Shown: positions 3,643 to 24,155, counted from the first letter of the stretch. The stretch: DNA of 49,649 nt from a candidate division Zixibacteria bacterium SM23_73_3 (GCA_001304155.1 LJUX01000021.1:1-49649), one strand, 5' to 3'. Numbers and translations: made by a program. The notes: generated by a model from the sequence alone, not told the origin.

Positions 3643-4575
3643 ATGCGACTTGTCTTTATGGGGACTCCAGATTTTTCTATCCCCAGCCTGAAGAAATTGA
3701 TTCAAAGCAGGCACCAAATAGTAGGGGTGGTGACCGCTTTTGACAAACCCAAAGGAAGAGGACGGAAACTTGCAGAGTCTCCGGTAAAGAGGTTTGCCTT
3801 AGAACACAACTTGAAGGTTCTGACTCCAGAGAAACTAAAGAATGAGGATTTTATCAAAGCCCTTAAAGAATTAAGCCCTGATCTGATAGTGGTGGTGGCT
3901 TTTCGCATTCTTCCGGAAGTGGTTTTCTCTTTGCCTCGGCTGGGGACCATAAATCTCCACGCCTCTCTTTTGCCCAGATATCGCGGGGCGGCACCCATCA
4001 ACTGGGCACTGATGAATGGTGAAACCAAGACCGGGCTGACCACGTTTTACATTAGAAAAAAAGTGGACACCGGTGATATGATTCTGCGGAGAGAAACCGA
4101 GATTTATCCGGAAGAGAATTTCGGCGAACTGCATGATCGAATGGCACAACAGGGGGCTGATGTTTTGCTTGAGACTGTGGATCTGATCGAAAGGGGAGAG
4201 GTAAAAACCTTAAAGCAGGATGATACACAGGCTACGCCTGCTCCCAAGATCACACCCGAGCACTGTCGGATAGACTGGTCTCGAAAAGCCACCCAAATAA
4301 AAAATCAGATTCGGGGGTTGGCGCCTTCTCCAGGAGCATTTACCTTTTTTCGGGGAAAAATTCTAAAAATCTACAGGGCGCATATAATCGGAGATGTTTC
4401 ATTTACAGGCGATTTGGGTCAGGTGACAGAGTCGGATGAAAAAGAGAGTCTCTGGGTGAAAACAGGAAGTGGGATCTTGAGCCTGCTTGAAGTTCAGCCA
4501 GAGGGCAAAAGAAGGATGAGCATTGAGGAATTCGTCCGAGGATACCGGGTCCAGCCTGAAGAGAAATTGGGATGA
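3643..4575 (+). CDS. fmt: methionyl-tRNA formyltransferase
   Basis: MRLVFMGTPDF, INLHASLLPRYRGAAPI; follows def. Confidence 0.97.
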   Translation: MRLVFMGTPDFSIPSLKKLIQSRHQIVGVVTAFDKPKGRGRKLAESPVKRFALEHNLKVLTPEKLKNEDFIKALKELSPDLIVVVAFRILPEVVFSLPRLGTINLHASLLPRYRGAAPINWALMNGETKTGLTTFYIRKKVDTGDMILRRETEIYPEENFGELHDRMAQQGADVLLETVDLIERGEVKTLKQDDTQATPAPKITPEHCRIDWSRKATQIKNQIRGLAPSPGAFTFFRGKILKIYRAHIIGDVSFTGDLGQVTESDEKESLWVKTGSGILSLLEVQPEGKRRMSIEEFVRGYRVQPEEKLG

Positions 4576-7548: not shown

Positions 7549-9763
7549 ATGTTGAGAACAATCATAATAGTTTTCGTCTTCGCTACTTTTATTTTTTGTC
7601 AGGTAAGCTCCGCCGCAGTTATCACCCAGATTGAGGTGCTGGGGAATCGAAGCGTAAATCAGTCCCTGATAATTAACATGGCCGGACTGGTGGTGGGTTC
7701 TGAACTCAGACCTGCCACCATACAGGAAGCTATCAAGAGAATCTATGCGATGAATCTGTTCTCTGATATTCAGATCGAGGGCGCTGAGTCAGAGACTGGG
7801 ATAGGGCTCACCATAATAGTCAAAGAATATCCACGGGTTATGGAAATTGAGATTTCAGGAAACAAGAAGATAAAGAAGGAGGATATAGAGGAAAAAATAA
7901 AAATCACTGAAGGTAAAGTGATAAGTCAGGTGGATGTAAGGACGGCGGTAGATCAGATTAAATCACTCTATAATGAGAAGGGATATCTTACTGCCCGGAT
8001 AGGATCTGAGTTGGTCGAAACGGAGGCTCCGGGCGGAGTGATCCTGAAGTTTGAAATCGACGAGGGCAAAAAGGTAAGGATCAAAAAGATCTATGTGGAG
8101 GGAAACGAAGCTTTCAAGGCATCCAAGATAAGAAAGCAGATGAAAAATAAACAGAAAAGCTTCTTTCGTGGTGGCGAGTTCAAGCCCGATCAGTACGAGG
8201 AGGACAAAGAGAAAATCATAGAATTCTACAAGAAAGAAGGTTATCTGGATGCCCAGATAGTCTCTGATTCTATTTGGTATGGACCCGATAAGAAGAATCT
8301 GTTTATTCAGGTTACGGTAAGCGAAGGGGAAAGATACAAGTTTGGAGAGGTGAATTGGGAAGGAAACAAACTTTTTTCCTCAGAGAGGCTAAGCAAACTG
8401 GTGAGATTCAAAGAAGGGGATATCTATTCCCAGAAAAAGTATGAGGAAACATTAGGTGACATTTACTTTCTTTATCAGGAGGATGGTTATCTTTACACCC
8501 AGGTGGAGGACAAGACCACCACGCGGGGGAACGTGGTAAATATTACCTATCATATAACCGAAGGGGTGCCGGCGAACGTCCATTACATAAACATTCAGGG
8601 CAACACCAAGACCAAGGAAAAGGTGATCAGAAGAGAGCTTTCTGTCTTACCCGGGCAGAGATTCCGACGCTCTCGGGGACATTGACTTAATCATTAAGGT
8701 GGAGGAGAAGCCCACCGGACAGATCATGTTTGGTGCAGGATACAGTGCCCGAGACAAGCTGGTAGGAAACATAGGTCTGGGCATTCCCAATTTTCGTGGC
8801 AATGGTCAGAATCTCAAACTTAACTGGGATTTCGGCAAAAGAAGGCAGACCATTGAGCTTTCCTTCACCGAACCCTGGTTCAGAGACACCCCCACTTCAG
8901 TGGGCTTCGACATCTACCAGATCAACCGGAAATGGTATGATGATTTTACTGAGGAGAACAGAGGATTCGGGCTAAGATTGGGCAGAAGACTTTCCTGGCC
9001 GGACAATTATTTCAGGCTATACTGGCGTTATCGATGGGAACAGATCAGATATTATGATTTTGCTCCTCCTTTAGCGGTGGTGGACCCCGCAGGCACAGAC
9101 ACTACTTATATTCCTCATTATCTTTCTGAGGTGGATTGGCCTCGAAATGCTGCCACCACTTCCTTTACAATAGTCAGGGATTCAAGAGATCTTCCTCAAT
9201 TCGCCACCAAAGGTTCCGTCCTTTCGTGGAATACAGAATTGGCGGCAAATTTCTTGGGGGGAGATTTTTACTATCATAAGCATATATTTCAAGCCAGCTA
9301 CTTCTTGACCACCTTCTGGAAATTTGTCCTGGCGGCTCATATGAAGGTGGGGGTTATAGATGGAAGGGACAAAGACCTGCCGGAGGTATACGGGGAACGT
9401 TTCTCACCAGGAGGTACAGATCCGGATGGGATGATTCGCGGGTACTCAGATGCTTCCATCGGACCAGCCAACAGGGGTAGGAGCGTCTTAGTTTACAATT
9501 TCGAATTGCAATACCCTCTGATGGAACAACAGATGTATTTCCTCTTTTTTGCTGATGCAGGAAATGCCTGGCCAAGTGGCAAAAAGATAAGACCGTTCGC
9601 GTTCCGGCACACATCGGATCAAGCCCTTTTCAGGTCAGCAGGCCTGGGGGTAAGACTTATAATCCCCGGAATGGGAATAATCGGGTTTGATTTCGGTCAT
9701 GCTTTTGATGGTGAAGAAAGAGGAGAGTGGAGACCTCACTTTCAATTCGGGACAACATTCTAA
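7549..9763 (+). CDS. bamA: outer membrane protein assembly factor BamA, split by an apparent internal deletion/frameshift near 8673
   Basis: ORF 7549-8685 has a signal peptide and POTRA repeats ending GNTKTKEKVIRRELSVLPGQRFRRS. A second frame resumes GDIDLIIKVEEKPTG and encodes the barrel, ending FQFGTTF. Followed by skp and lpxD. Confidence 0.9.
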
Positions 9764-11833: not shown

Positions 11834-12262
11834 ATGAGCAATTCTCAACAGCATACCAATCCTGCAGATGAACAGATAAAACAGATTTTGCAGAAATACA
11901 AAAAAGTGGCGGTGGTGGGGCTCTCTCCTGATTCAAGCAGACCTTCCAATGGAGTGGCTCGATATTTACAAAGTAAAGGATTCACGATAATCCCAGTCAA
12001 TCCTGAGGAGACACAGATCTTAGGAGAAAAAGCTTATCCCGATCTGAGCTCTATACCGGAGAAAGTGGAGATCGTGGATATTTTTCGCCGACCTGAGTAT
12101 GTGCCCCCCATAGTGAATGAAGCCATCAAAATTGGCGCTAAGGTTATCTGGATGCAGAAGGGTGTGATAAATTATCCTGCCGCACTTAAAGCCTCCCAAA
12201 ACGGCATCATGGTGGTCATGGACAGATGCATGTTTAAAGATTGTAGGGTCTTGTGTGAATGA
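11834..12262 (+). CDS. CoA-binding protein (YccU-like)
   Basis: KKVAVVGLSP, IIPVNP, VDIFRRPE, IWMQKG, VVMDRC. Confidence 0.9.
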   Translation: MSNSQQHTNPADEQIKQILQKYKKVAVVGLSPDSSRPSNGVARYLQSKGFTIIPVNPEETQILGEKAYPDLSSIPEKVEIVDIFRRPEYVPPIVNEAIKIGAKVIWMQKGVINYPAALKASQNGIMVVMDRCMFKDCRVLCE

Positions 12263-12458
12263 TAAAATCTTGGATAAAGATCGGAAAGTTGCGAAAGATG
12301 GATCAAGCTGCCCTGTTAGACAGACTTCTGAGCAGACTATCGAAATTCTCGTGAAAGGACAGGAATGCCCCTTTTGCCATTTCGCCAAGCTAAAAAGGGA
12401 AGGTGACGAGATAGTATGTCCCATCTGTGGATATGGACACAGACCCTCAACCTGATAG
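12255..12458 (+). CDS. small zinc-ribbon protein, candidate C-terminal selenoprotein (...CPICGYGHRPST-U-stop)
   Basis: CPFC-x13-CPIC motif. TGA at 12453-12455 is followed by TAG and a SECIS-like hairpin. Without recoding the CDS ends at 12455. Confidence 0.7.
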
Positions 12459-12492
12459 AAACCTGTAAGGGAGGAGTTTCCTCTTTTTTTTA
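12456..12492 (+). promoter_or_regulatory. hairpin after the zinc-ribbon TGA: candidate SECIS and/or intrinsic terminator
   Basis: Stem AGGGAGGA/TCCTCTTT (12468-12475 / 12479-12486) closes a GTT loop whose G is the 21st nt after the TGA; followed by a T run. Confidence 0.55.
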
Positions 12493-12559
12493 GCGAATGA
12501 CTTTGCCCCAAACAGAAGAGGCATTTGAGGGTTTCTTCGCAATTTGAGAAGGAGAGACA

Positions 12560-12976
12560 ATGTTTATCAATATGTCATGGAAGGGGAACTTGGCTTTTGA
12601 AGCGGAAACCGAGTCTTGGCATCGAATCTTGCTTGATGCTAAGCGAGAGGTAGGCGGGGAAGACAAAGGTCCCCGACCCATGGAGGTTTTGCTGGTCTCC
12701 CTGGCTGGATGCACCGCGATGGATGTTGCCTCCATTTTGAAAAAGAAAAGAGTGAATCTGCAAGACATGACCGTCAAGATTGACGCAAAACAAGCACTCC
12801 AGCATCCAAAATACTTCACCAAAATAGATGTGGAGTTCAATTTTGTGGGGAAAGATATCAAGGAGGAGGATGTTAAACAAGCCATAGAGCTCTCCAAGGA
12901 TAAATACTGTTCGGTTTCAGTTATGTTAAAAGAGAAGGCTGAAATCTCATATCGATGGAATATTGTGAATCTGTAG
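12560..12976 (+). CDS. OsmC/YhfA family protein
   Basis: GPRPMEVLLVSLAGCTAMDV and SKDKYCSVS, carrying the two conserved Cys. Confidence 0.92.
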   Translation: MFINMSWKGNLAFEAETESWHRILLDAKREVGGEDKGPRPMEVLLVSLAGCTAMDVASILKKKRVNLQDMTVKIDAKQALQHPKYFTKIDVEFNFVGKDIKEEDVKQAIELSKDKYCSVSVMLKEKAEISYRWNIVNL

Positions 12977-13000
12977 TGACCCTCTTTCCCTGACCAGAAC

Positions 13001-15352
13001 ATGAGACGTCCCGCCTTTTATGCCTTACTTCTTTTTGTCGCAGGCATTCTTTTAGGCAATTTTTTTGACCTTCCTGTCGTTTTGCTCTTTTCGATTTTTT
13101 CACTGACGCTTCTCTTCTGCCTTATTTTCCTCCTGCGCAAAGAAAGACAAAGCGCCACCCCGTTTTTAATCCTATCAATCATACTGGCAGGTTTCTTCAG
13201 ATATGAACTTATAACACGAAATTTTTCCCCCAATCACATAATCAATTTCTTGAATTTGAATTCCAAGGTAACCGTAGCCGGGAAAATAGTGGACGAACCC
13301 GATGTAAGAAAAAACAAAACATTCATAACTCTTGATACCGAAAAAATAACTATTGGCGAAAGAACTTATTCAACCACTGGTCAGGTAATTCTCAAAATAA
13401 AAAAGCCCACCTTTAAGTTTGACTATGCCGATAACATTGAATTCGAAGGATACTTAAATGAGCCCACTTCCAAACGAAACCCGGGAGCATTCGATTATAA
13501 AAGATATCTCAACCGGAAAAAAATCTATGGGATTGTCAATCTGTCTCATGTGGATCAGGTGAAAATCTTAAAACAGGGTGAAGCGAACATCTTCTCTTCC
13601 CAGATTGTGATTCCGTTGAGAAGATGGATTTTAGGGGTTTTCGACAGAACATTATCAGGAAATCACAAAGCCCTTCTCGCCGGGTTTCTCTTAGGGGAGA
13701 CCAGGGAGATTCCCAAACAAGTTTATACCATGTTCAGAGATACCGGCACGGTCCATCTTCTGGCAGTCTCCGGCTCCAATGTATGGTTGGTTATCGGGGT
13801 AATTTTTGGGGCTTTAAGTTTGCTTCGAGTTCCCAAGCTTTTTGCCACTTTTGTGACTCTGATTTGTATTTTTATATTCGCTAATCTGGTGCATAATGAT
13901 CCCCCGGTGGTAAGAGCAGGAATTATGGCATCGGTGATATTGGTGGGCGTCCTTTTATATAAGGATGTGAATTTAGTAAATGTGGTCTCGTTTGCCGGCT
14001 TGGTTATTCTGTTTTTTTCTCCTCTCTTTCTTTTTGATGTGGGATTTCAGCTTTCTTTTGCATCTGTTTTTGGAATTCTTTTCCTATATCCACAACTGAG
14101 TAGGTTGGTATCAAAATATATTAGCAGATCTCATAAGAAGTTGTGGAAATGGGTGATAATGCCTGCTCTGATCTCCGTGTCTGTAGAGTTGGTTCTTTTC
14201 CCCATCTTAGCCTATTATTTTAACATGATTCCTCTTATAATTGTGGTAGCTAATTTATTCATAGTTCCTTTAGCTGGTTTGTCGGTGGTGCTGGCTTGTT
14301 TCACTCTGTTTTCTACCATCTTCAGTGCACTTTTGGCGGGCATTTTTTCCGCTTTCAACTGGGTATGTCTGAGTTTGACCTTAAGGTTGACCGAATTCTT
14401 TGCCACCTTGCCAGTGGCAAAACTTTTTGTCTCCGCCCCCTCAGCTTTCAGTTTCATAAGCTACTACTTTTTTCTCTGGCTTTTAGTCAGTTCCATTGTC
14501 TCAAAGAAAAAAATTCTTCTTTTCTCGTTTCTGATAATTGCCAATGTGTTCATCTGGAGGGAGGGTCTGTCACGCAGCGATAGATCTTTGAAGGTAACTT
14601 TTCTGGACGTTAGTCAGGGAAGTTCTGCCGTTGTTGATCTTCCCAACAAAGAGGCTTTTTTGATAAATGCAGGGGAGAAGGGGATGAATTTTGATGCCGG
14701 CGAGTATATTGTGGTTCCATTTTTAAATCATAAGGGTATGATTAAAATTGACAAGTTGATCCTTACGGATACTAACCCCCTGAATGTAAATTCAGCTCGC
14801 TCGATTGCAGAAGATAGGCAGGTCGAAAAGATATTCCTCCCCCTTCCCCTCAACCTGGTGGATAGAATCTATGGAAATTTGTTGAAAGGACTTTCCAGTA
14901 GACTCTTTTCCCTAGATTCTGTTGACGCCATCATGGATGAGCAAAGCGAGTTTGCGATTCAGTTACTTAATTACACGAAAGTGGACAAATCGGGATCGAT
15001 CCACAGGAAACTTTTGGTCAAGCTCGTGCATAAGGAGATTACTTTTGGCATTTTTGATGGAATTAAAAAGGTTTGTTTTGATCCAGAATTTGATTGGGAT
15101 GAGTTGAAAAATTGCTCGGTTCTGGTTCTGCCTGAACTGGGGGATGAGGATGAAATTGTCAAAATTATCTCTGCGGTCAGACCTAAAAAGATCATCTTCA
15201 CCCGTCATTATTTTCGCTACGAGAGGAATAAAATCCCCACTCTGATGCAAATAAATTTTCCCGAAATTGAATATTATCGCACAGCAGAAAACGGAGCCAT
15301 AACTTGCGAAACCGATGGTGAAAAATTGTGGTTTGATCTTACACTTAAGTGA
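13001..15352 (+). CDS. comEC: DNA internalization competence protein ComEC/Rec2
   Basis: N-terminal TM and OB (DUF4131-like) region with RNPGAFDYKRYL; competence domain GTVHLLAVSGSNV, VVRAGIM, LFDVGFQLSF; C-terminal beta-lactamase-like domain. Confidence 0.93.
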   Translation: MRRPAFYALLLFVAGILLGNFFDLPVVLLFSIFSLTLLFCLIFLLRKERQSATPFLILSIILAGFFRYELITRNFSPNHIINFLNLNSKVTVAGKIVDEPDVRKNKTFITLDTEKITIGERTYSTTGQVILKIKKPTFKFDYADNIEFEGYLNEPTSKRNPGAFDYKRYLNRKKIYGIVNLSHVDQVKILKQGEANIFSSQIVIPLRRWILGVFDRTLSGNHKALLAGFLLGETREIPKQVYTMFRDTGTVHLLAVSGSNVWLVIGVIFGALSLLRVPKLFATFVTLICIFIFANLVHNDPPVVRAGIMASVILVGVLLYKDVNLVNVVSFAGLVILFFSPLFLFDVGFQLSFASVFGILFLYPQLSRLVSKYISRSHKKLWKWVIMPALISVSVELVLFPILAYYFNMIPLIIVVANLFIVPLAGLSVVLACFTLFSTIFSALLAGIFSAFNWVCLSLTLRLTEFFATLPVAKLFVSAPSAFSFISYYFFLWLLVSSIVSKKKILLFSFLIIANVFIWREGLSRSDRSLKVTFLDVSQGSSAVVDLPNKEAFLINAGEKGMNFDAGEYIVVPFLNHKGMIKIDKLILTDTNPLNVNSARSIAEDRQVEKIFLPLPLNLVDRIYGNLLKGLSSRLFSLDSVDAIMDEQSEFAIQLLNYTKVDKSGSIHRKLLVKLVHKEITFGIFDGIKKVCFDPEFDWDELKNCSVLVLPELGDEDEIVKIISAVRPKKIIFTRHYFRYERNKIPTLMQINFPEIEYYRTAENGAITCETDGEKLWFDLTLK

Positions 15353-15380
15353 ACTTAAAGCTACGGTTGAAGGATAGAGA

Positions 15381-15444
15381 AGTTGTGGCGGGGTACCCTT
15401 ACTCCGCCGCCTGAAGGTCGAGGGTAAGGTACCCTCGACCAACT
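15381..15444. repeat. inverted REP-like doublet
   Basis: AGTTG...CAACT ends enclose gcggggta-ccct-tactccgc and the perfect 11-bp stem ggtcgagggta-agg-taccctcgacc. Confidence 0.65.
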
Positions 15445-15462
15445 AGTGAACTAATGTCTTAA

Positions 15463-16197
15463 TTGCTTATGACAGCAACAGAGACAGTTTTGCTGGCTGG
15501 TTTCATTGTTTTGATTGGTCATTTCATCAAAGGAGTCTCCGGGTTTGCCGGTGCCCTGTTTGCAATTCCACTTTTAGCATTATTCTTAGATATCAAATTT
15601 GTCGTCCCCGTATTTTTGTTGTTCGATTTCATTTCCGGGATAATTCTGGCCATACAAAATCGAAGGTTTATTGATAGAAGAAGTACCCTTTTGATTCTTT
15701 CTGGGTTGGTGATCGGAACAGCAATTGGTACATGCTTTTTAGTCTCTTTTGGAAACGAAGCGTTGAAAAAGGTTTTTGGTGTGGTGGTGATTCTGTTTGG
15801 GCTGAAGATACTAATCTGGGACAACCAGGAGACGAAAAGACACATCAGCAAAGTCTGGGCGCCATTCTCTGGACTTGCCGGTGGGTGCACTGGCGCAATG
15901 TTTGGTCTGAATGGTCCACCACTTGTGCTTTATCTTGCCCGTCAACTTCATGACAAGCAAATCTTCAGAGCCACGCTTTACGGCATATTCTTTGTGGATG
16001 CCTGCTACAGACTGATCCTTTATTCATTCAATAAACTTATTACCATGGAAGTGATTAAATTCGCTCTATATCTGACACCGTTTCTGTTGATCGGCCTTCT
16101 TCTCGGATCGAAACTGCACACAAGAATCAACGAGACTGTTTTCAAAAAAGTCATTGCTCTGATTCTGGTGATGACCGGGATATTCTTGGCTATCTAA
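15463..16197 (+). CDS. sulfite exporter TauE/SafE family membrane protein
   Basis: KGVSGFAGALFAIP and GAMFGLNGPP repeats; about 8 TM helices. Confidence 0.88.
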   Translation: MLMTATETVLLAGFIVLIGHFIKGVSGFAGALFAIPLLALFLDIKFVVPVFLLFDFISGIILAIQNRRFIDRRSTLLILSGLVIGTAIGTCFLVSFGNEALKKVFGVVVILFGLKILIWDNQETKRHISKVWAPFSGLAGGCTGAMFGLNGPPLVLYLARQLHDKQIFRATLYGIFFVDACYRLILYSFNKLITMEVIKFALYLTPFLLIGLLLGSKLHTRINETVFKKVIALILVMTGIFLAI

Positions 16198-16405
16198 AGA
16201 CCGTATGTCGGATTGCGAGCCGTCTGACGAGCTAACCGACACCTGTGTTTTGTCCATTCATGATAAGTTCCTCATGTTGTATTCTGCAACGAAGGGGGTA
16301 ATCTGCCTTGAAAACAGATGTTCAAAAATTAGGCAGAAGGAAATTGTTACAATCTAAAGCTCTAAAGGGCACAGTGTTGTAAAAGAGCTAAGGTATAATA
16401 AAACA

Positions 16406-16422
16406 TCGGTATGTCTTTTGCA
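16406..16422 (+). promoter_or_regulatory. sigma54 (-24/-12) promoter for the pilin
   Basis: TCGGTATGTCTTTTGCA: GG at 16408-09, N10, GC at 16420-21 in a TTGCA context, about 65 nt before the pilin start. Confidence 0.55.
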
Positions 16423-16485
16423 CTACTCAGAGTGGATAAAACTATTTGAAGATAATGTATAAACAAAGGAAAGGGGTGATAGTTT

Positions 16486-16911
16486 ATGTTGAGCACCTTT
16501 CACAGAGACTCGAAAGGTTTCACCCTGATCGAGTTGATGATCGTGGTGGTCATTATTGGCATCTTAGCCGCAATGGCCATCCCTCGCTTTATGCGAACCA
16601 CCACCAAAGCCAAACAGTCTGAGGCCAAACAGATTCTGAAGCAGATCTATACCATGCAGAGGGCTTACCGACAGCAGTATGATACTTATGCTTGCAATGG
16701 TAAAACTATGTGCTCGGCTTGACCGAATAGCTTTGTGGTCCTCGGGGTGGAATATATGCCAAGTGCCAGATATACCTATCGCATAACCGCTGGCGCCACC
16801 ACATTCACTGCAACGGCAACCTCTGATCTGGATGATGACGCTACTCAGGATATCTGGCAGATCGATCAAGAGGGCAAACTTGTCTGTACCTCCGACGACG
16901 CAACCAGCTAA
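16486..16911 (+). CDS. type IV pilin (141 codons) interrupted by an in-frame TGA at 16720-16722
   Basis: Prepilin site KG/FTLIELMIVVVIIGILAAMAIPRF. The same frame continues after the TGA with pilin-like PNSFVVLGVEYMPSARYTY...DIWQIDQEGKLVCTSDDATS to TAA at 16909-16911. Confidence 0.85.
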
Positions 16912-16935
16912 GTTTAGCTGGGAAATGAAAAGCCA

Positions 16936-16965
16936 AAAATGGGGATTTGAGAGAATCCCCATTTT
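16936..16965 (+). terminator. intrinsic terminator (potentially bidirectional) after the pilin
   Basis: Perfect 12-bp inverted repeat aaaatggggatt/aatccccatttt. Confidence 0.75.
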
Positions 16966-17281
16966 CTGTTAAGAAAGATTTTGAATGGCTTGTTGGTAAT
17001 GGATATTGCGCTTGTTACAAGGTTCCTCAATGCAATAGAAAAGACGTCCGTTCCCGGCAAGTCTTCCTTTGGACTGAAGTCAGGACGAGTCCACAGTAAA
17101 CAGGGGAGGGGCTTTCAAACTATCGGGTAGCATGATGTAAAATATCCCAAAGCAGGAAACTTAAAAAATTTTTGGAAAAACCTTGACTTTTATAGAACAA
17201 TAGCGTAGAAATAATTAAAGTCAAGGTTGACAACGCGGTTGTATCAGCTTGGTTTGAAAAAAAGAGATAAGGAAGAAAAAA

Positions 17282-17461
17282 ATGGGATTGTTGGATAAAA
17301 TATTTCATCGTCCCCCGAAATCCGCAATGCACCTTAGTCGTAATGCTCCATGTTGGTGTGGGAGTGGCAAGAAATACAAGAAGTGCCATTACGAATCGGA
17401 TCAGAAATACTTCTCCAGTATTGTTGCCAAAACTTGCAAAACTTCCTCCTGACGAAGATAA
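17282..17461 (+). CDS. small SEC-C motif (zinc-binding) protein absent from the ORF track; candidate selenoprotein (...TCKTSS-U-RR)
   Basis: ATG at 17282 after AAGGAAG; MGLLDKIFHRPPKSAMHLSRNAPCWCGSGKKYKKCHYESDQKYFSSIVAKTCKTSS, then TGA at 17450-17452, CGA AGA, TAA. Without recoding it is 56 aa ending at 17452. Confidence 0.85.
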
Positions 17462-17493
17462 ACGAGGTGAGTTTCACCTCATAAGAAAGCTTC
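17454..17493 (+). promoter_or_regulatory. candidate SECIS after the SEC-C protein TGA
   Basis: Perfect 7-bp stem GAGGTGA/TCACCTC (17464-17470 / 17474-17480) with a GTT loop whose G is the 19th nt after the TGA. Possible lower GAAG/CTTC helix; no T run follows. Confidence 0.55.
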
Positions 17494-17627
17494 TGGTCAG
17501 TAACTCACAACGAATGGCTAATAGCCATCTTGTCTTTGAGTGATTTAGGAGATCAAACAATTACACGTATTGTAGTTGTTCAATTTATTGAGCTAAAGAA
17601 GCGTCATGAATGGGGCAACTACAGATC

Positions 17628-18866
17628 TTATTCAAAAACAGGTTCCACGATTTTTCCGATAAAGAGTATGGTTTGAGACTGATTTTCCCGAACCATAAAC
17701 ACAAATGGCCGATCAACCCGAAAACCAGAATGGGGGTTTACTGAGCAATACATCTGAACAGAAGTAACCGCCGCTGCTTCAGTCCCTTCTTCATTCACTT
17801 CTATAAATGTTTTGTGCTTTACCTCATTAATCCACACCTCACCATTTTTATACATTTTCGTAAAGTCAGCTAACCAGGGATCGAAGGCAACGCCCATTCC
17901 TAATGCCTGCAGTGCGTCATTCAACTTCAGCTCATATTCAAGTGTGAACTTTGGAAAGTAGATATCAAAAGAATCGCTTGGGAAAGATAAACAACTAACC
18001 CAGTAATTGAAGCTTTCATGATCAAATTTCGCAATCAGGGAATCGATGTCCCTTTGTGGATGAGGGAGAAAAATTGTCATGCTAAAGCTCCCATCACCAT
18101 ATGGTAAATCAACAGCTTGAAAGTCGTCATTTGAGAAATACCTGTATAGCCCTCTCTGTTCCATCATTTTGCACGGCTTTCTTGAACTGTCGGGCAGAAT
18201 GAACCAATCATCTTTCGTCGACTCTTTGTCAAACTGATAGGTCCAGGTACCTTTGAAATAGATGGCATTAATCAAAAACATAATGGTCATAGGGTCAATC
18301 GGGTTATCCACAATTTCTGTGATCTTTCCATTGGTATTTTCATCAACCCATGCATTGATTATTTTTGCGGCATTCGGGTCGCTAAAATTCAACCCGCTGA
18401 CTAACGCATAGAAGTATTCCTTGCATAGATTGATGAATTCCTCTTCAGGGGTTAAACCCTGATAGTACCATATCGAATTCGCAATCTGAAATTGCACTTT
18501 GGGATCAAGCTGAGTAAGCAACTTTATCAGATTTTTGTAGGACTCGTTCACCTCTTGAATGGTCAAATCAGAAAGTCCAAGAACTTCTTGCATTGCCTCT
18601 TGGGTTCTTCCGTTGGTACCATTATAAGTCATTCCCAATGCCATGGAAACGCTCAAAGGAGAAATGAAAACGTTTTTGTCTTTTTCCTCTTTGATTATCT
18701 CCTGGAAAAGTCTGAGTCCGAATTTGTTGTCCGATTCGACCAAACTTTTGGCAAACCAAGTTGATCCAGGAGGAATTTCATCCTCAGTTGAAACGGGATT
18801 CTTTGAACATTGCAACAAGGCAATGCCCAATAAGAGCACGAGGAAAAGGTTCAGTTTTTTAAACAT
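17628..18866 (-). CDS. serpin (serine protease inhibitor), predicted lipoprotein
   Basis: Lipoprotein-type signal LLLGIALLQC; NVFISPLSVSMALGM, LINAIYFKGTW, hinge NEEGTEAAAVT, FRVDRPFVF. Confidence 0.95.
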   Translation of the reverse strand: MFKKLNLFLVLLLGIALLQCSKNPVSTEDEIPPGSTWFAKSLVESDNKFGLRLFQEIIKEEKDKNVFISPLSVSMALGMTYNGTNGRTQEAMQEVLGLSDLTIQEVNESYKNLIKLLTQLDPKVQFQIANSIWYYQGLTPEEEFINLCKEYFYALVSGLNFSDPNAAKIINAWVDENTNGKITEIVDNPIDPMTIMFLINAIYFKGTWTYQFDKESTKDDWFILPDSSRKPCKMMEQRGLYRYFSNDDFQAVDLPYGDGSFSMTIFLPHPQRDIDSLIAKFDHESFNYWVSCLSFPSDSFDIYFPKFTLEYELKLNDALQALGMGVAFDPWLADFTKMYKNGEVWINEVKHKTFIEVNEEGTEAAAVTSVQMYCSVNPHSGFRVDRPFVFMVRENQSQTILFIGKIVEPVFE

Positions 18867-19616
18867 GATATACTCCTTCTTTAATTGTGGTGGCTAGTTG
18901 GATTCCTATTCCTTTGTAAAAACTACGCCGAACCTCGGATTTGAATTTGAGGTTTGTCTCGAGATTTTAACCTGCTTGATTTTGGGGATTTTGTTTTTTG
19001 TCAAATCTCTCTTTTCTCCCTCCAAAAAAATTCCCCAAAATGTTCTCGGTGAGTTGTCTTTTTCATTTCCATTTACATACTAATTCCTTACCCAAGGTCA
19101 AAAGCTGTGGCCACAATGTTCAAAAAAATAACCACTTTATTTTCTAATCAAACATTGTGCCAGGTTTTTTCTCGCATGATTAATTTTGTAAATAGTTATG
19201 AAACAAAAGAATATGGCTAATAACTTCTTCTATCATCTGTATAATTTGAGATCTAACTCGCCAATTTTAGCGAAGTTAAGAATCCGAAACGATTCTCAAT
19301 TTGTGTTAGGTATAAAAACATAATTAGGTTACATTGGTTCGTTGAAAACTGCGACTGCAGACAAAAAACACGGGAGCTCCTCCTCTTGGTAACGAACGCC
19401 TCGTGCTTTACCAGTTTCCTCAACGTCACGCAAGTTGTGGCAGGGTATATTTTAGGAGGAATCCCTTAGGGCAGGCACTACACGCCACCTTTATGCTGAG
19501 TGTGTCGAACCATAAAAGGTCGAAGAAGATGATACTCCCGACTAACAGGCCAGAAGGAAAAAAGCTGCTGCTCGGTAGTCAAAACCACGACATAAAAAGC
19601 AGCCTGTATTTTTTTC

Positions 19617-19645
19617 TTGACAAGACGTAATTGGAAACATAAATT
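19617..19645 (+). promoter_or_regulatory. sigma70-type promoter for the formate dehydrogenase locus
   Basis: TTGACA-N17-TAAATT about 70 nt upstream of fdhE. Confidence 0.6.
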
Positions 19646-19713
19646 TAGACGAATTATGTATGATTTCATGCTTTGACGCTGAAAAGTGAGGGAAATCAAA
19701 AGGATTTTAATTT

Positions 19714-20571
19714 ATGACCGCTCCAGCGGAGAGTAAGTTATATCTTGGTCTTTGCCAGCAGATAGCCGAAGTCAGGTCCGCTTTCAAAACCAGGCACCTG
19801 AAGGATACAAAAACTCCAGATGAGCAGATTCAAGAACAGGCAGAGGGAAAAAAGCCCCTCCTGGACATGCAAAAGCTGAAGATAGGAAAAAAACTTCCAG
19901 ACGAGTTTTTCAACGATTTGCTTTCTGTTTTGAAGAGCAACGAATTCTTCAGCCGCATGGAAATTGACAGGCTCCTTGCCAATAAAGAAAAAATCAATTT
20001 ACTTAAACTAATCCGACTAGTTCTTGATAGAGATTTCCCAAGACTAATATCTTTTTCTTCCCAACTCGAGATTGAGACAGATCTAGTTCTATTTATCGGT
20101 CTGAACTTAAGTCAGGCTGTGTTGGAACTCTATGCCGACACAATTAAAGACAAAGTGGATCAGGAGAACTGGCTCAAGGGAAATTGTCCGGTTTGTGGAA
20201 GTTACCCGGGTATTGAAAAACTGAGAAGGGATGATGGCAAGAGGATACTGCGGTGCAGTTTCTGCGGAACAGAGTGGTATTTCAAAAGGATCATGTGCCC
20301 ATTCTGCGACAATGAAGACCATAACAGCTTAAGATATTTCTTCATAGAGGAGGATTCCCCAACAGAGAAAGCCGCTTTCCGGGTGGACGTATGCGACAAG
20401 TGTAAAAGTTATATTAAAACGGTCGACGAGAGAAAGCTGCCTGAATCTGAAAAACCTGATTTATACCTGGAGAATTTCAATACCATATACTTAGATGTTC
20501 TGGCTCAAAAGGATGGCTACCAAAGCCCCACTTACTGGATGGTAGCGCCATCTGAGGATTTATTGGTTTGA
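19714..20571 (+). CDS. fdhE: formate dehydrogenase maturation protein FdhE
   Basis: CPVCGS, RILRCSFCGTEW, CPFC, RVDVCDKCKSYIKTVD, LDVLAQKDGY; upstream of the FDH genes. Confidence 0.93.
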   Translation: MTAPAESKLYLGLCQQIAEVRSAFKTRHLKDTKTPDEQIQEQAEGKKPLLDMQKLKIGKKLPDEFFNDLLSVLKSNEFFSRMEIDRLLANKEKINLLKLIRLVLDRDFPRLISFSSQLEIETDLVLFIGLNLSQAVLELYADTIKDKVDQENWLKGNCPVCGSYPGIEKLRRDDGKRILRCSFCGTEWYFKRIMCPFCDNEDHNSLRYFFIEEDSPTEKAAFRVDVCDKCKSYIKTVDERKLPESEKPDLYLENFNTIYLDVLAQKDGYQSPTYWMVAPSEDLLV

Positions 20572-20639
20572 GAACTCATGTGAAAGAAATCACAAAATAT
20601 AAACTTTTTAAACAAAATCTCGGAGGGAGGTGAGATTTT

Positions 20640-21143
20640 ATGAAAGGACTAAGGCTAATCGCCATATTTTCGGTGATTCTACTGCTGGTATTTGTATGGG
20701 CGTTTGCGCAGACATCTAAGAAGGAAGTTTCAAAAAAGGAAGAACCCACTGCTTTTCAGACCAGATGCGCTATCTGCCATTCCCTGGAAGAGGTTAGAAC
20801 TGGTATGGAGAAAATGATCATCGACATGCACGGTAAAGCGGGAATAAAGATCGGCGAGGAGTCCTTGAAGGCAATTGAGAAGAGCTTCACTCTGTTGCCG
20901 GTGGAGGATCCGCACAAGGGGCTCTTCCAGGAGAAGTGCGTTAAATGCCATTCCATGGACTTGGTGGTCAAGGCCCATCAAACCCTGGATGAGAAGGAGA
21001 TGAAAGAGATCATCGAGAAGATGGCAAAGAAGGAGAAATCCGGAATCTCAACAGAGGAAATAGAGAAGATTCACCAGTCTATGATGATATTAAATGAGAT
21101 CTATGAACCGGATGTAGAATTGAAAAAAGAAGAGAAAAAATAA
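20640..21143 (+). CDS. exported diheme c-type cytochrome
   Basis: Signal peptide ending AFA; two CxxCH motifs (CAICH, CVKCH) in two similar repeats, each with downstream Met residues. Confidence 0.8.
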   Translation: MKGLRLIAIFSVILLLVFVWAFAQTSKKEVSKKEEPTAFQTRCAICHSLEEVRTGMEKMIIDMHGKAGIKIGEESLKAIEKSFTLLPVEDPHKGLFQEKCVKCHSMDLVVKAHQTLDEKEMKEIIEKMAKKEKSGISTEEIEKIHQSMMILNEIYEPDVELKKEEKK

Positions 21144-21176
21144 AACAAAAAACCGTTAAGGAGGTGAAGAAAGCAC

Positions 21177-24155
21177 ATGAAAATCTCAAGAAGAGGTTTT
21201 CTAAAGATCTCCGGAGGAGTGACGACTGGAGCGGTCCTGGGCACCTTCGGAGTTCACCTGAAAAGCTCGCAGGCACATGCTCAAACGCTGAAAACCAAAT
21301 ACGCCAAGGAAACCACCACCATCTGTCCATATTGCGGAGTGGGATGCAGTGAGATCGTGTCGGTGAGCAATGACAGGGTGATAAACATCGAGGGCGACCC
21401 GGATCATCCCATCAATCAAGGTTCACTCTGCAGTAAGGGAGAGGCTCTTATTCAAGTGGCAAATAACGAAAGAAGAATGACCAAGATCCTATATAGAGCA
21501 CCTTATAGCGAGAAGTGGGAGGAGAAGAGCTGGGATTGGGCAATACCGGAGATCGCCAAAAGAATTAAGAAGACCAGGGACGAGAGCTGGATGGCGAAGG
21601 ATGGAAAGGGACGGGTAGTCAATCGCACAGAAGCCCTGGCTGGATTGGGCGGAGCCGCTTTGGATAATGAGGAATGTTATCTTTGGTCCAAGCTGGCCCG
21701 AGCCCTGGGTATAGTCTATTTAGAACACCAGGCGCGTATATGACACTCTGCCACAGTCGCCAGTTTGGCGGAAACTTACGGCAGAGGCGCTATGACCAAT
21801 CACTGGATCGATATCAAGAATGCTGACTGCATTATGATCATCGGTTCCAACGCAGCAGAAAATCACCCCATATCCTTCAGATGGGTTAACAAGGCGATGG
21901 AGAATGGCGCCAAGCTCATCAGCGTCGACCCCCGCTTCACCCGCACCTCATCCAGAGCAGATATCTATGCCCCCATAAGGTCGGGAAGCGATATCGCCTT
22001 CGTCGACGGGGTGATGAACTACATCGTGCAGAATAACCTTTTCAACCAGGAATATCTGGTAGATCACACTAACGCCAGCTTCCTGGTCAACACGCAGTTC
22101 GGATTCTCGGACGGTCTCTTCACTGGGTACGACGGGTCGAAAAGAATGTATAAGAAGGATACCTGGCAATATCAACTGGATGAAAGCGGAAATCCGAAAA
22201 AGGACCCAACTCTTCAAGATCCTAATTGCGTATTTCAGCTTTTAAAGAAGCATCTTTCCCGTTACACGCTCGAGAAGGTATCCAGCATCACCGGATGTCC
22301 TGCAGAATTGATTGTGGAGGTGGCGAAAACTTATGGAGCAACCGGAGCCAAGGATAAATCCGCAACCATCATGTATGCCATGGGCACCACTCAGCATACC
22401 GTGGGAACACAGAACGTGCGCACTTACGCCATGCTTCAGCTTCTGTTGGGAAACGTAGGAGTGGCTGGAGGCGGAATCAATGCACTGAGAGGGGAGTCCA
22501 ACGTGCAGGGTTCCACTGATATGGCCATCCTGTTTCACATTCTTCCGGGTTATCTCAAAACTCCAAGGGTAGAGAACCAGACTTTGGCTGAGTATCTGGA
22601 AATGTGGACGCCCAAGTCAAATGACCCTAAGAGCGCTAATTGGTGGCAGCATACCCCTAAATATACGGTGAGTCTGCTGAAGGCTTTCTGGGGAGATCAC
22701 GCCACGAAAGACAACGAATTCGCCTATCAGTATCTTCCCAAGGTGAGCGCAAATTACTCCCACATCTCAATGTTTGAGGCCATGTACGACGGCGTGATCA
22801 AAGGTCTCATATGCATGGGGCAGAATCCAGCCGTGGGTGGTCCTAATGTCCTAAAGGAAAGAAAGGCTCTGGAAAAGCTGGATTGGCTGGTTGCGGTAGA
22901 TCTCTGGGAGACCGAGACTGCAGCTTTCTGGAGTGCTCCTGGAGTTGATCCCAAGAAGATAGGAACCGAGGTTTTTATGCTGCCCGCGGCGGCTTCCATG
23001 GAGAAAGAGGGAAGCATTACCAACAGCGGTCGATGGAGCCAATGGAGATATACGGCGGTTCATCCTCCGGGCGATGCCAAATCCGATCTGTGGATTTTAG
23101 ATCAGATCGGCAAGGAGCTGAAGAAGCTGTACCAAGCCGATACCGGACCCTTCCCTGGCCCCATAGTGCATCTCAACTGGAACTACGGGCCGGGAAGAGA
23201 GGAGCCGGACGTGCATCTGGTGGCTAAGGAGATCAATGGATATGATCTGACCACCGGCAAGCTGATGGCATCCTTCGGAGCGCTCAAGGATGACGGCACC
23301 ACCTCTTCCGGTAACTGGCTGTACTGCGCCAGCTACACCGAGGCCGGTAACATGGCTGCCCGCAGAGATCCCACAGATGCACCCAATAAAATTGGACTTT
23401 ATCCCAAGTGGTCCTGGTGTTGGCCGGTAAATAGAAGGATTATCTATAACCGTGCCTCATGCGATCTTCAGGGCAATCCATATGCTCCTCATAAGTGGGT
23501 GGTCAAGTGGACAGGTCCTGAGACAAAATGGGCCGGTGACGTGCCCGACGGCGGTTGGCCTCCAGGAGATAAATACTCCTTCATCATGAAGCCTGAGGGT
23601 CATGCTCGACTCTTTGGTTTCGGCCTAGCAGATGGTCCCTTCCCCGAACACTACGAGCCTCTGGAGGCGCCGGTGAAGAATGCCATGTCCGCTCAACAGC
23701 TCAATCCGGTTGTCAAAATCTGGTCTGGGGAAATGGATGATGTGGGGACCGTGGAAAAGTATCCCGTCATCGCCACCACCTACCGGGTCACGGAGCACTG
23801 GCAGGCGGGTCAGATGACCAGAAACAATTCCTGGTTGGTGGAGCTCATGCCCGACATGTTCGTGGAGATGAGTAAAACTCTGGCCCAAGCCAAGGGTGTC
23901 AAGAACGGAGACAGGGTAAGAATAAAAACCGCGCGTGGAGAGATAAGTGCGTATGCGGTGGTAACCGCTCGATTTAAGCCATTCAAGCTGAACGGAAAAT
24001 CCTGCGAGCAGATTGGATTGCCATGGCATTACGGTTATAAGGGTCTAGCCACGGGGCACAGCGCAAACTCTTTGACCCCGCATGTGGGTGATGCCAACAC
24101 CATGATACCTGAATACAAGGCGTTCCTCTGCAACGTCGAAAAGGAGGTGGGTTAA
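21177..24155 (+). CDS. fdhA: formate dehydrogenase alpha subunit, selenocysteine-containing (992 aa, Sec at TGA 21741-21743), Tat-exported
   Basis: Twin-Arg signal SRRGFLK; CPYCGVGC Fe-S motif. The two track ORFs are in frame and join as HQARI-U-HSATVASLAETYGRGAMTNHW, the FdnG/FdhA active-site motif. Confidence 0.96.
21746..21786 (+). promoter_or_regulatory. bacterial SECIS element of fdhA
   Basis: Lower stem CTCTGCC/GGCAGAG and apical stem CGCCA/TGGCG with a GTT loop; loop G is the 20th nt after the TGA. Confidence 0.88.

What the first reader, a model, noticed from the sequence alone, without database searches (positions are those of the whole stretch)
12453..21786. One shared SECIS signature (UGA, about 20 nt, stem with A-GUU-U apex) links three unrelated genes
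Seen: CGCCA-GTT-TGGCG (fdhA), GAGGTGA-GTT-TCACCTC (SEC-C protein) and AGGGAGGA-GTT-TCCTCTTT (zinc ribbon). Stems differ, but the AGTTT apex is identical and spacing is 20/19/21 nt. By eye, no such hairpin follows the TGA stops of the flavin reductase, fmt, rplU, yccU, comEC, fdhE, fdhB or fdhD. Inference: a lineage-specific SelB recognition motif and a small-selenoprotein repertoire that standard annotation misses. Caveats: a related AGTT-loop hairpin sits at the pilin TAA (16904-16921) with no nearby TGA, and selABCD are not in this window.
Basis: partly seen in the sequence, partly recalled or inferred. Interest (0 to 1): 0.78.

Follow-up and report, generated by a model that had tools for sequence, protein, structure and literature searches.

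The report
Two hidden C-terminal selenoprotein genes
The three hairpins behind TGA codons are ordinary bacterial selenocysteine-insertion signals, and two of them expose tiny metal-binding proteins ending in selenocysteine that gene annotation and current selenoprotein catalogues miss.

Summary

The fdhA element is a standard two-stem SECIS.

**The two small ORFs look like real selenoprotein genes.**
- **Zinc-ribbon family:** 30 of 31 genes examined end ...T-TGA, followed at once by a second stop (TAG, TAA or TGA). One distant member has TAA-TAA.
- **SEC-C mini-protein family:** 35 of 35 genes, from at least four phyla, end C-x3/4-TGA, then 0-5 codons, then a stop.
- In both families a hairpin starts about 11 nt after the TGA. 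Its stems show compensatory changes and its loops read GUU, GUC, GGU, GGC or GGUC.
- Unrelated small SEC-C proteins from the same scan use TGA in only 13 of 41 cases and have no hairpin.
- SelB is present across the lineage.

**What is not supported.** The A-GUU-U apex is not lineage-specific. It is the published bacterial SECIS consensus (N1-G-[G/U]-N-N2). HdrA in this same genome uses a GGUC loop 28 nt after its TGA.

**Status.** Neither family matches any NCBIfam selenoprotein model or appears in a 2026 list of 119 families. No Cys-containing homologue was found. I class this as new members of a known kind. Selenium incorporation itself is untested.

The parts
12255..12458 (+). Zinc-ribbon mini-protein gene (CPFC...CPIC). 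It is called as 66 aa ending ...GYGHRPST. I read it as 67 aa with Sec (TGA 12453-12455) as the last residue, followed directly by TAG 12456-12458.
   Evidence: In 23/23 order-level orthologues and 7/8 distant members the gene ends T/G-TGA plus an immediate second stop. The synteny LpxD-TrxA-(YccU)-this gene-OsmC is conserved.
12467..12487 (+). SECIS of the zinc-ribbon gene: stem AAGGGAGGA/TCCTCTTTT with loop GUU, loop G at 12476 (21st nt after UGA). It lies wholly in the 3' UTR. In this genome it runs into a T8 tract (to 12491) and so probably also acts as an intrinsic terminator.
   Evidence: In alignment A3, 7 of 9 pairs show changes on both sides. The covariation score is 0.443 against 0.278 for shuffles (0/500 as high) and at most 0.28 for slid partners.
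17282..17461 (+). SEC-C motif mini-protein gene. It is called as 56 aa ending ...TCKTSS. I read it as 59 aa ending ...C-K-T-S-S-U-R-R, with Sec at TGA 17450-17452 and the true stop at TAA 17459-17461.
   Evidence: All 35 family genes examined have TGA 3-4 codons after the conserved Cys, then 0-5 codons and a stop.
17464..17480 (+). SECIS of the SEC-C gene: GAGGUGA-GUU-UCACCUC, 11 nt after the UGA, loop G at 17471 (19th nt). It lies wholly in the 3' UTR.
   Evidence: Among the 32 family hairpins tabulated there are 22 distinct stems, with compensatory variants such as GGCGUGA/UCACGCC, AGAGAUGA/UCAUCUCU, GGUGCC/GGCACC and GGGAUGA/UCAUCC. The loop G lies at +18 to +21 in 31 of 32.
21177..24155 (+). 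fdhA: Tat-signal formate dehydrogenase alpha subunit of 992 aa with Sec189 (TGA 21741-21743) in the motif R-I-U-H-S-A-T-V-A.
   Evidence: TGA is present in 21 relatives.
21746..21786 (+). fdhA SECIS with two stems. The lower stem pairs 21746-21752 with 21780-21786. The upper stem-loop UCGCCA-GUU-UGGCGG spans 21757-21771, with the loop G at 21763 (20th nt).
   Evidence: -19.6 kcal/mol. There is a sub-threshold Rfam SECIS_3 match at 21738-21796 (32.6 bits, E 3e-4). The lower stem covaries in relatives (CUCUCCC/GGGAGAG), and the apex switches to G-GUC-U in other genera.

Best explanation
The three hairpins are canonical bacterial SECIS elements, read by SelB-GTP-Sec-tRNA(Sec). The apical G-U sits about 20 nt after a UGA, so SelB is held at the mRNA entrance of a ribosome that has the UGA in its A site.

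One element serves fdhA, a known selenoprotein gene. The other two serve small metal-binding proteins in which Sec is the last residue or the third from last:
- the zinc ribbon, ending ...(C/S/V)-T-U-stop;
- the SEC-C mini-protein, ending ...C-x3/4-U-x-x-stop.

Because the true stop follows 0-5 codons after the UGA, both SECIS elements lie entirely in the 3' UTR. In this genome the zinc-ribbon SECIS also carries a U-tract and probably doubles as the transcription terminator.

The shared A-GUU-U apex is the generic SelB-binding consensus, not a lineage-specific signature.

Shown here: conservation of the TGA, of the second stop and of a covarying hairpin, and presence of the Sec machinery in the lineage.

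Inferred: actual Sec insertion, and the proteins' chemistry. I suggest a selenolate acting as a redox or metal ligand. For the zinc ribbon the conserved TrxA-YccU-OsmC neighbourhood points to thiol or peroxide metabolism.
For: **Zinc-ribbon family**
- 23/23 orthologues across the order end in TGA directly followed by a stop. That second stop varies in identity: TAG 18, TAA 4, TGA 1.
- 7/8 distant members from other, GC-rich organisms do the same, with GGUC, CGUGA or CGUGC loops.
- The hairpin covaries. A T-tract follows it in only a few genomes, so it is not simply a terminator.

**SEC-C family**
- 35/35 genes have TGA. They come from Zixibacteria, Planctomycetota, Nitrospirota, Desulfobacterales and metagenomes.
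- The extension after TGA is 2 codons in 27 genes, 5 in 5, 3 in 2 and 0 in 1.
- Control: other small SEC-C proteins from the same scan end TAA 16, TAG 12, TGA 13 and have no hairpin. Fisher P = 4e-11.
- The stop-codon background in this genome is 36% TGA, and a tandem stop follows 7% of TGA stops.

**Sec machinery**
- tRNA-Sec is present in this genome.
- SelB scores over its cut-off in 54/61 relatives.
- SelB is present in 8/9 genomes of other phyla that carry the SEC-C gene.

**Fit to known SECIS**
- All three elements fit the published bSECIS model.
- A bacterial SECIS placed in a 3' UTR is experimentally known to work for near-C-terminal Sec, as in TrxR expressed in E. coli (PMC10778597).
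Against: - No Cys-containing homologue was found for either family. The searches covered 5.8 billion proteins and an HMM search of 1.84 billion representatives. The classic Sec/Cys pair criterion is therefore not met.
- selA, selB and selD were not found in this MAG, which is 82% complete.
- The zinc-ribbon hairpin in this genome looks like a textbook terminator (T8). The SEC-C hairpin scores as a weak terminator on the minus strand, facing the convergent serpin gene.
- One distant zinc-ribbon member has TAA-TAA instead (L236).
- Raw genome-wide counts of the motif after TGA versus TAA/TAG are not different.
- There is no proteomic or selenium-labelling evidence.
Confidence: 0.85

Rival explanations
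1. The two small ORFs end at ordinary TGA stops, and the hairpins are intrinsic terminators or mRNA-stabilising 3' hairpins. Only fdhA carries a SECIS.
For: The zinc-ribbon hairpin is followed by T8. The SEC-C hairpin lies between convergent genes and scores as terminator-like on the minus strand. No Cys homologues exist. The motif is not enriched after TGA genome-wide.
Against: - An ordinary stop would drift among TAA, TAG and TGA, as it does in non-family SEC-C proteins (13/41 TGA). Here it is TGA in 65 of 66 genes.
- The next in-frame stop, which would be free to drift, is always present within 0-5 codons while its identity varies.
- Most orthologous hairpins have no U-tract.
- Loops keep G-[G/U] at +18 to +21 while stems covary.
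Confidence: 0.06
2. The hairpins bind SelB, but mainly as regulatory or dual-output elements. The UGA mostly terminates, and Sec insertion is rare or conditional, so the cell makes chiefly the truncated protein. The site then acts as a selenium-responsive switch or SelB sink rather than a dedicated Sec codon.
For: From general knowledge: bacterial UGA-Sec decoding competes with RF2, and a SECIS-like element without Sec insertion regulates selAB in E. coli. Here truncation removes only 1-3 residues, so both products should be stable. One family member has replaced TGA by TAA and kept the rest.
Against: Strict conservation of the downstream stop, and of basic residues after U in the SEC-C family (S/R/G then R/K/G), implies that the extension is translated and selected. 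This rival is a matter of degree, not an alternative to Sec decoding.
Confidence: 0.07
3. One reading: the A-GUU-U apex about 20 nt from the UGA is a lineage-specific SelB recognition code shared by all Sec codons of this organism.
For: All three elements in the window share it. Within the genus, the fdhA, zinc-ribbon and SEC-C elements nearly all keep GUU.
Against: - HdrA in the same genome has a GGUC loop 28 nt after its UGA, and the Trx-like gene has a GGA loop.
- Sister genera use G-GUC-U in fdhA.
- Planctomycetota carry the identical GAGGUGA-GUU-UCACCUC hairpin.
- The pattern equals the general consensus N1-G-[G|U]-N-N2.
Confidence: 0.05

Closest known systems
Bacterial SECIS element (type example E. 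coli fdhF; consensus model of Zhang and Gladyshev 2005 as summarised in PMC13188914)
   Same: A hairpin immediately downstream of the UGA, a small apical loop with G followed by G/U, the loop 16-37 nt from the UGA, and energy at or below -7.5 kcal/mol. From my own recall, the loop G at about +20 matches G23 of fdhF.
   Different: In the two small genes the whole element lies beyond the true stop codon, in the 3' UTR, instead of inside the reading frame. In this genome one of them also carries a terminator U-tract.
'UXX-star' selenoprotein families (NF041114, NF041211) and the 'KCU-star' family (DUF466, NF033934), listed in PMC13188914 Table 1
   Same: The architecture: Sec as the last residue (KCU-star) or followed by two residues and a stop (UXX-star), in small proteins, with proposed metal-binding or redox roles.
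   Different: The protein families are unrelated. No member of either family here matches those NCBIfam models, even at E up to 10. The folds here are a zinc ribbon and a SEC-C metal-binding motif.
Engineered 3'-UTR bacterial SECIS used to express mammalian thioredoxin reductase (...G-C-U-G-stop) in E. coli (PMC10778597)
   Same: A near-C-terminal Sec decoded with a bacterial SECIS placed after the stop codon. This shows the arrangement works mechanistically.
   Different: That construct is artificial. Here the arrangement is natural and conserved across phyla.
Small Cys-rich predicted selenoproteins: the dual CXXC motif small protein (NF041197), the FmdB-family zinc ribbon (TIGR02605, UxxU) and the zinc-ribbon (seleno)protein DG (NF049953)
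   Same: Tiny proteins with two CXXC pairs and a predicted Sec.
   Different: No HMM match to any of them. In the present family Sec lies outside the CXXC pairs, as the very last residue after a conserved Thr/Gly.

Membership tests
Bacterial SECIS (bSECIS consensus model) | Apical loop of 3-9 nt on an upper stem of 4-16 bp | tested here: met
   The loop is 3 nt. Stems are 9, 7 and 5-6 bp.
Bacterial SECIS (bSECIS consensus model) | G in one of the first two loop positions, followed by G or U (N1-G-[G|U]-N-N2) | tested here: met
   A-GUU-U in all three window elements. Family-wide the loops are GUU, GUC, GGU, GGC, GGUC, AGUU and CGUGC.
Bacterial SECIS (bSECIS consensus model) | 16-37 nt between the UGA and the apical loop | tested here: met
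   The loop G is the 21st, 19th and 20th nt after the UGA. In the SEC-C family it is at +18 to +21 in 31 of 32 tabulated genes.
Bacterial SECIS (bSECIS consensus model) | Folding energy at or below -7.5 kcal/mol | tested here: met
   -8.5, -10.1 and -19.6 kcal/mol.
Bacterial SECIS (bSECIS consensus model) | Binds SelB and directs Sec insertion at the upstream UGA | not testable with these tools
   This needs SelB binding assays, 75Se labelling or mass spectrometry.
Selenoprotein gene (field criteria) | The in-frame TGA is conserved in orthologues of other Sec-using organisms | tested here: met
   Zinc ribbon 30/31, SEC-C 35/35, fdhA 21 relatives.
Selenoprotein gene (field criteria) | Homologues exist with Cys aligned to the Sec position | tested here: not met
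   None was found among the hits of the 5.8-billion-protein searches or among the 38 hits of the profile search of 1.84 billion representatives. Family members stop at the same position.
Selenoprotein gene (field criteria) | [quoted passage not shown] | tested here: inconclusive
   tRNA-Sec was found at a contig edge. selA, selB and selD are not in this 82%-complete MAG. SelB is present in 54/61 relatives and in 8/9 carriers from other phyla.
UXX-star / KCU-star / dual-CXXC / DG selenoprotein families (NCBIfam NF041114, NF041211, NF033934, NF041197, NF049953) | Match to the family HMM | tested here: not met
   No hit for any of the 28 zinc-ribbon or 41 SEC-C members at E up to 10.
Intrinsic (Rho-independent) terminator | A GC-rich hairpin directly followed by a U-tract, conserved as such | tested here: inconclusive
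   The zinc-ribbon hairpin in this genome has T8, but most of the 23 orthologues lack a T-run. The SEC-C hairpin has no T-run on the + strand and only a weak one on the - strand.

The most novel reading that the evidence does not exclude
The zinc-ribbon and SEC-C mini-proteins are obligate-selenocysteine families: no Cys form was found in the protein collections searched here. Their only Sec is the last or third-from-last residue, and it is decoded from a SECIS lying wholly in the 3' UTR.

The window's type IV pilin also carries a genus-conserved CxxU-forming TGA. Together these point to a hidden layer of selenoproteins with terminal Sec. Both standard discovery strategies (Sec/Cys pairing, and a reading frame that continues past the TGA) are structurally blind to such genes. 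In them, selenium supply would decide between two near-identical protein isoforms.
Probability: 0.45. Interest if true: 0.72.

Novelty: new member of a known kind. Interest (0 to 1): 0.6.

Why it matters
If confirmed, this adds two widespread selenoprotein families to the prokaryotic selenoproteome, and possibly a selenopilin. One family (SEC-C) spans at least four phyla.

It also shows why they were missed.
- The reading frame stops 0-5 codons after the UGA.
- No Cys homologue exists.
- So both the Sec/Cys-pair searches and the "truncated ORF with an extension" searches fail.

A comparative rule would recover such genes systematically: an invariant TGA, a conserved nearby second stop, and a covarying hairpin about 11 nt downstream.

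The finding also gives natural examples of a bacterial SECIS working from the 3' UTR. In one case the SECIS is fused to a terminator. Finally, it links a C-terminal selenol to zinc-ribbon and SEC-C metal sites, next to thioredoxin and OsmC genes.

Tried and rejected
A-GTT-T or GTT-loop hairpins 8-17 nt after TGA versus TAA/TAG gave 4 vs 3 vs 1-2 (strict apex) and 14 vs 10 vs 6 (any GTT loop). A looser bSECIS-like pattern gave 102, 90 and 51. None is informative, because short hairpins are common and true sites are few.
- **A scan for further "TGA + stop within 5 codons + hairpin" genes in this genome.** It gave one tempting hit (C31:3609...RRCC-TGA-KE-stop). Its frame looks non-coding, so I dropped it.
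- **The terminator reading of the zinc-ribbon hairpin.** I favoured it at first because of the T8 tract. I demoted it after seeing that most orthologues lack a T-run yet keep the TGA, the second stop and the hairpin.
- **Search for Cys homologues.** None was found in two word-indexed searches and one full HMM search.
- **NCBIfam and literature checks for prior description.** No selenoprotein model matched. No paper holds both "selenoprotein" and "SEC-C motif". The 2026 inventory of 119 families lists neither family. Haft and Tolstoy 2025 (PMC12013261) could not be read.
- **AlphaFold model of the zinc ribbon.** The core has pLDDT above 90, but the fold search gave only generic, non-significant zinc-ribbon similarities.
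- **Rfam.** Only the fdhA element gives a match, sub-threshold, to SECIS_3.
Full report
**1. Observation**

Each follows a TGA, at 12453, 17450 and 21741. The loop G is the 21st, 19th and 20th nt after the TGA, exactly as stated.

The genome is a 1.88-Mb, 82%-complete MAG. A 90%-identical OsmC assigns it to candidate division Zixibacteria. It holds 137 A-GTT-T hairpins of at least 5 bp, so the motif by itself is common. Three of them in 9.3 kb of one strand, against 0.34 expected, is unusual (P about 0.005).

I scanned stop codons closing open frames of at least 100 codons in the window, plus the two small ORFs. None of the real genes ending in TGA carries a hairpin that fits the SECIS model.

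**2. fdhA**

Reading TGA 21741 as Sec gives a 992-aa Tat-signal formate dehydrogenase alpha subunit with the motif R-I-U-H-S.

- The element has two stems, lower 21746-52 with 21780-86 and upper 21757-71. It folds at -19.6 kcal/mol.
- It gives a sub-threshold match to Rfam SECIS_3.
- In 21 relatives the lower stem covaries (CUCUGCC/GGCAGAG to CUCUCCC/GGGAGAG). The apex is A-GUU-U in this genus and G-GUC-U in others.

**3. The SEC-C mini-protein (17282-17461)**

Pfam finds a SEC-C motif. After TGA come CGA AGA TAA, and then the hairpin 11 nt after the TGA.

*Close relatives.* In the nine genes of the genus and family (this one included):
- the TGA is invariant;
- two codons follow (R/S/G, then R/K);
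- a stop follows that varies between TAA and TAG;
- the hairpin is nearly invariant, while synonymous sites in the gene vary.

*Protein database.* A search of 5.8 billion proteins returned more than 70 small proteins that all end three or four residues after a conserved Cys (CKTSS, CKGPV, NCGPT). This is what truncation at a Sec codon would produce.

*DNA of further members.* I examined 26 more genes. They come from Planctomycetota, Nitrospirota and Desulfobacterales genomes (9), metagenome contigs (14) and the CGPT subfamily (3).
- All 26 have TGA.
- The extension is 0-5 codons, then a stop.
- A hairpin begins 8-13 nt after the TGA, with compensatory stems and loops GUU, AGUU, GGU, GGC, GGGC or CGUGC.

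The total is 35 of 35.

*Internal control.* Unrelated small SEC-C proteins picked up by the same scan end TAA 16, TAG 12 and TGA 13, with no hairpin (Fisher P = 4e-11).

*Sec machinery.* SelB is present in 8 of 9 genomes of other phyla that carry the gene.

**4. The zinc-ribbon protein (12255-12458)**

TGA is followed at once by TAG, and the hairpin runs into T8, so at first I read it as a terminator. Comparison changed that view.

- In 23 of 23 orthologues across the order, the gene ends (C/S/V)-T-TGA, followed immediately by a second stop. That stop's identity varies (TAG 18, TAA 4, TGA 1).
- The spacer after it is unalignable, yet the hairpin persists with loops GUU or GUC. Most orthologues have no T-run.
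- The helix shows double-sided changes at 7 of 9 pairs. The covariation score is 0.443, against 0.278 for shuffles (0 of 500 as high) and at most 0.28 for slid partners.
- A profile search of 1.84 billion representatives found 38 relatives. Nearly all stop at the same position.
- Of eight distant members whose DNA I fetched, seven have TGA plus an immediate TAG or TAA and a hairpin with GGUC, CGUGA or CGUGC loops. One has TAA-TAA.

For background, this genome uses TGA for 36% of long-ORF stops, and a tandem stop follows only 7% of those.

The gene order LpxD-TrxA-(YccU)-zinc ribbon-OsmC is conserved in the order-level loci; OsmC was found downstream in 23 of 25. Distant members again sit next to CoA-binding, OsmC or thioredoxin-like genes.

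**5. Argument for Sec**

An ordinary stop codon drifts among the three stop codons, and the codon behind it is free to change. Here the first stop is TGA in 65 of 66 genes. The next stop is always present within 0-5 codons, although its identity varies.

That pattern is expected only if the TGA is decoded and translation must then be ended. The covarying hairpin at SECIS geometry, the tRNA-Sec in this genome and SelB in 54 of 61 relatives complete the case.

A bacterial SECIS placed in a 3' UTR is experimentally known to serve near-C-terminal Sec codons (PMC10778597). Natural families with terminal Sec ("KCU-star", "UXX-star") are already catalogued (PMC13188914).

**6.

- The A-GUU-U apex is an instance of the published consensus N1-G-[G|U]-N-N2, 16-37 nt from the UGA.
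- In this same genome HdrA (C13...DCSIUILGP...) has a GGUC loop 28 nt after its UGA. A thioredoxin-like/TPR protein (C85, FWSDGUKWCK) has a GGA loop.

There is therefore no lineage-specific code, only the generic one.

**7. Weak points**

- No Cys homologue exists for either family.
- selA, selB and selD are missing from this incomplete MAG.
- Nothing here shows selenium in the proteins.
- The protein functions are inferred only from motifs and neighbours.

**8. Prior description**

- No NCBIfam selenoprotein model matches any of the 69 family members tested (release of June 2026).
- The 2026 inventory of 119 prokaryotic selenoprotein families lists neither family.
- No paper in the library pairs "selenoprotein" with "SEC-C motif".
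- I could not read Haft and Tolstoy 2025.

I therefore class this as new members of a known kind.

**9. Verdict**

Noticed in passing
window 16486-16911 (TGA at 16720-16722): The type IV pilin gene has an in-frame TGA that is conserved in all 6 genus members examined, plus one metagenome contig whose gene caller read it as Trp under code 4.
- The downstream 62 codons are conserved as protein, and the Pfam ComP_DUS match spans the TGA.
- The TGA clade also gained a Cys, giving T-M-C-S-A-U (CxxU), where other Zixibacteria pilins have ...TAS-AAA (Ala, Gly or Asn at that column, never Cys).
- Relatives have a hairpin GUACUC-GGUGUC-GAGUAC 15 nt after the TGA. It is weak in this genome.

This is a candidate selenopilin.
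   Followed up: partly
window 16903-16921: The hairpin CCAGCUA-AGUU-UAGCUGG spans the pilin TAA stop. It is identical in 5 of 6 genus members and degenerate in the sixth, which has a TGA stop there. It lies about 180 nt from the pilin's internal TGA, too far to act as a bacterial SECIS for it. A separate strong terminator follows at 16935-16966. Its function is unexplained.
   Followed up: partly
genome contig C13, minus strand, TGA at reverse-strand position 3778: An HdrA-like gene with Sec in ...KTYPTMDCSIUILGPK.... Its SECIS has an apical GGUC loop (stem GGAUGUC/GACAUCC) 28 nt after the UGA, plus a lower stem. This is a bona fide Sec codon without the A-GUU-U apex.
   Followed up: yes
genome contig C85, minus strand, TGA at reverse-strand position 8890: A thioredoxin-like/TPR protein with a UxxC motif (AEFWSDGUKWCKRLEDS). 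A 10-bp hairpin with loop GGA follows 10 nt after the UGA. It is probably a member of the known thiol:disulfide-interchange type of selenoproteins.
   Followed up: partly
genome contig C70, plus strand, TGA at position 1572: A 645-codon frame for a secreted repeat/rhodanese/dockerin-like protein is interrupted by one TGA in the context ...FSCPGG-TGA-GATSCG.... It could be Sec, a sequencing error or two genes. I did not examine it further.
   Followed up: no
genome contig C25:13-109, minus strand: tRNA-Sec (anticodon UCA) sits at the very edge of a contig. The missing selA/selB genes may lie just beyond the assembly break.
   Followed up: no
window 17453-17470: The 5' arm of the SEC-C hairpin contains an in-frame TGA (ACG AGG TGA) three codons after the TAA. 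In family members with a 5-codon extension (S-L-P-K-R, R-A-P-K-R) this same TGA inside the hairpin is the real stop. That may explain why GAGGUGA is conserved across phyla.
   Followed up: partly
locus L236 (Logan SRR15359041 contig), gene end at 489: This is the one zinc-ribbon family member with TAA-TAA instead of TGA-stop. It keeps an imperfect hairpin and sits next to a thioredoxin-like gene. It may be a lineage that gave up the terminal Sec.
   Followed up: no
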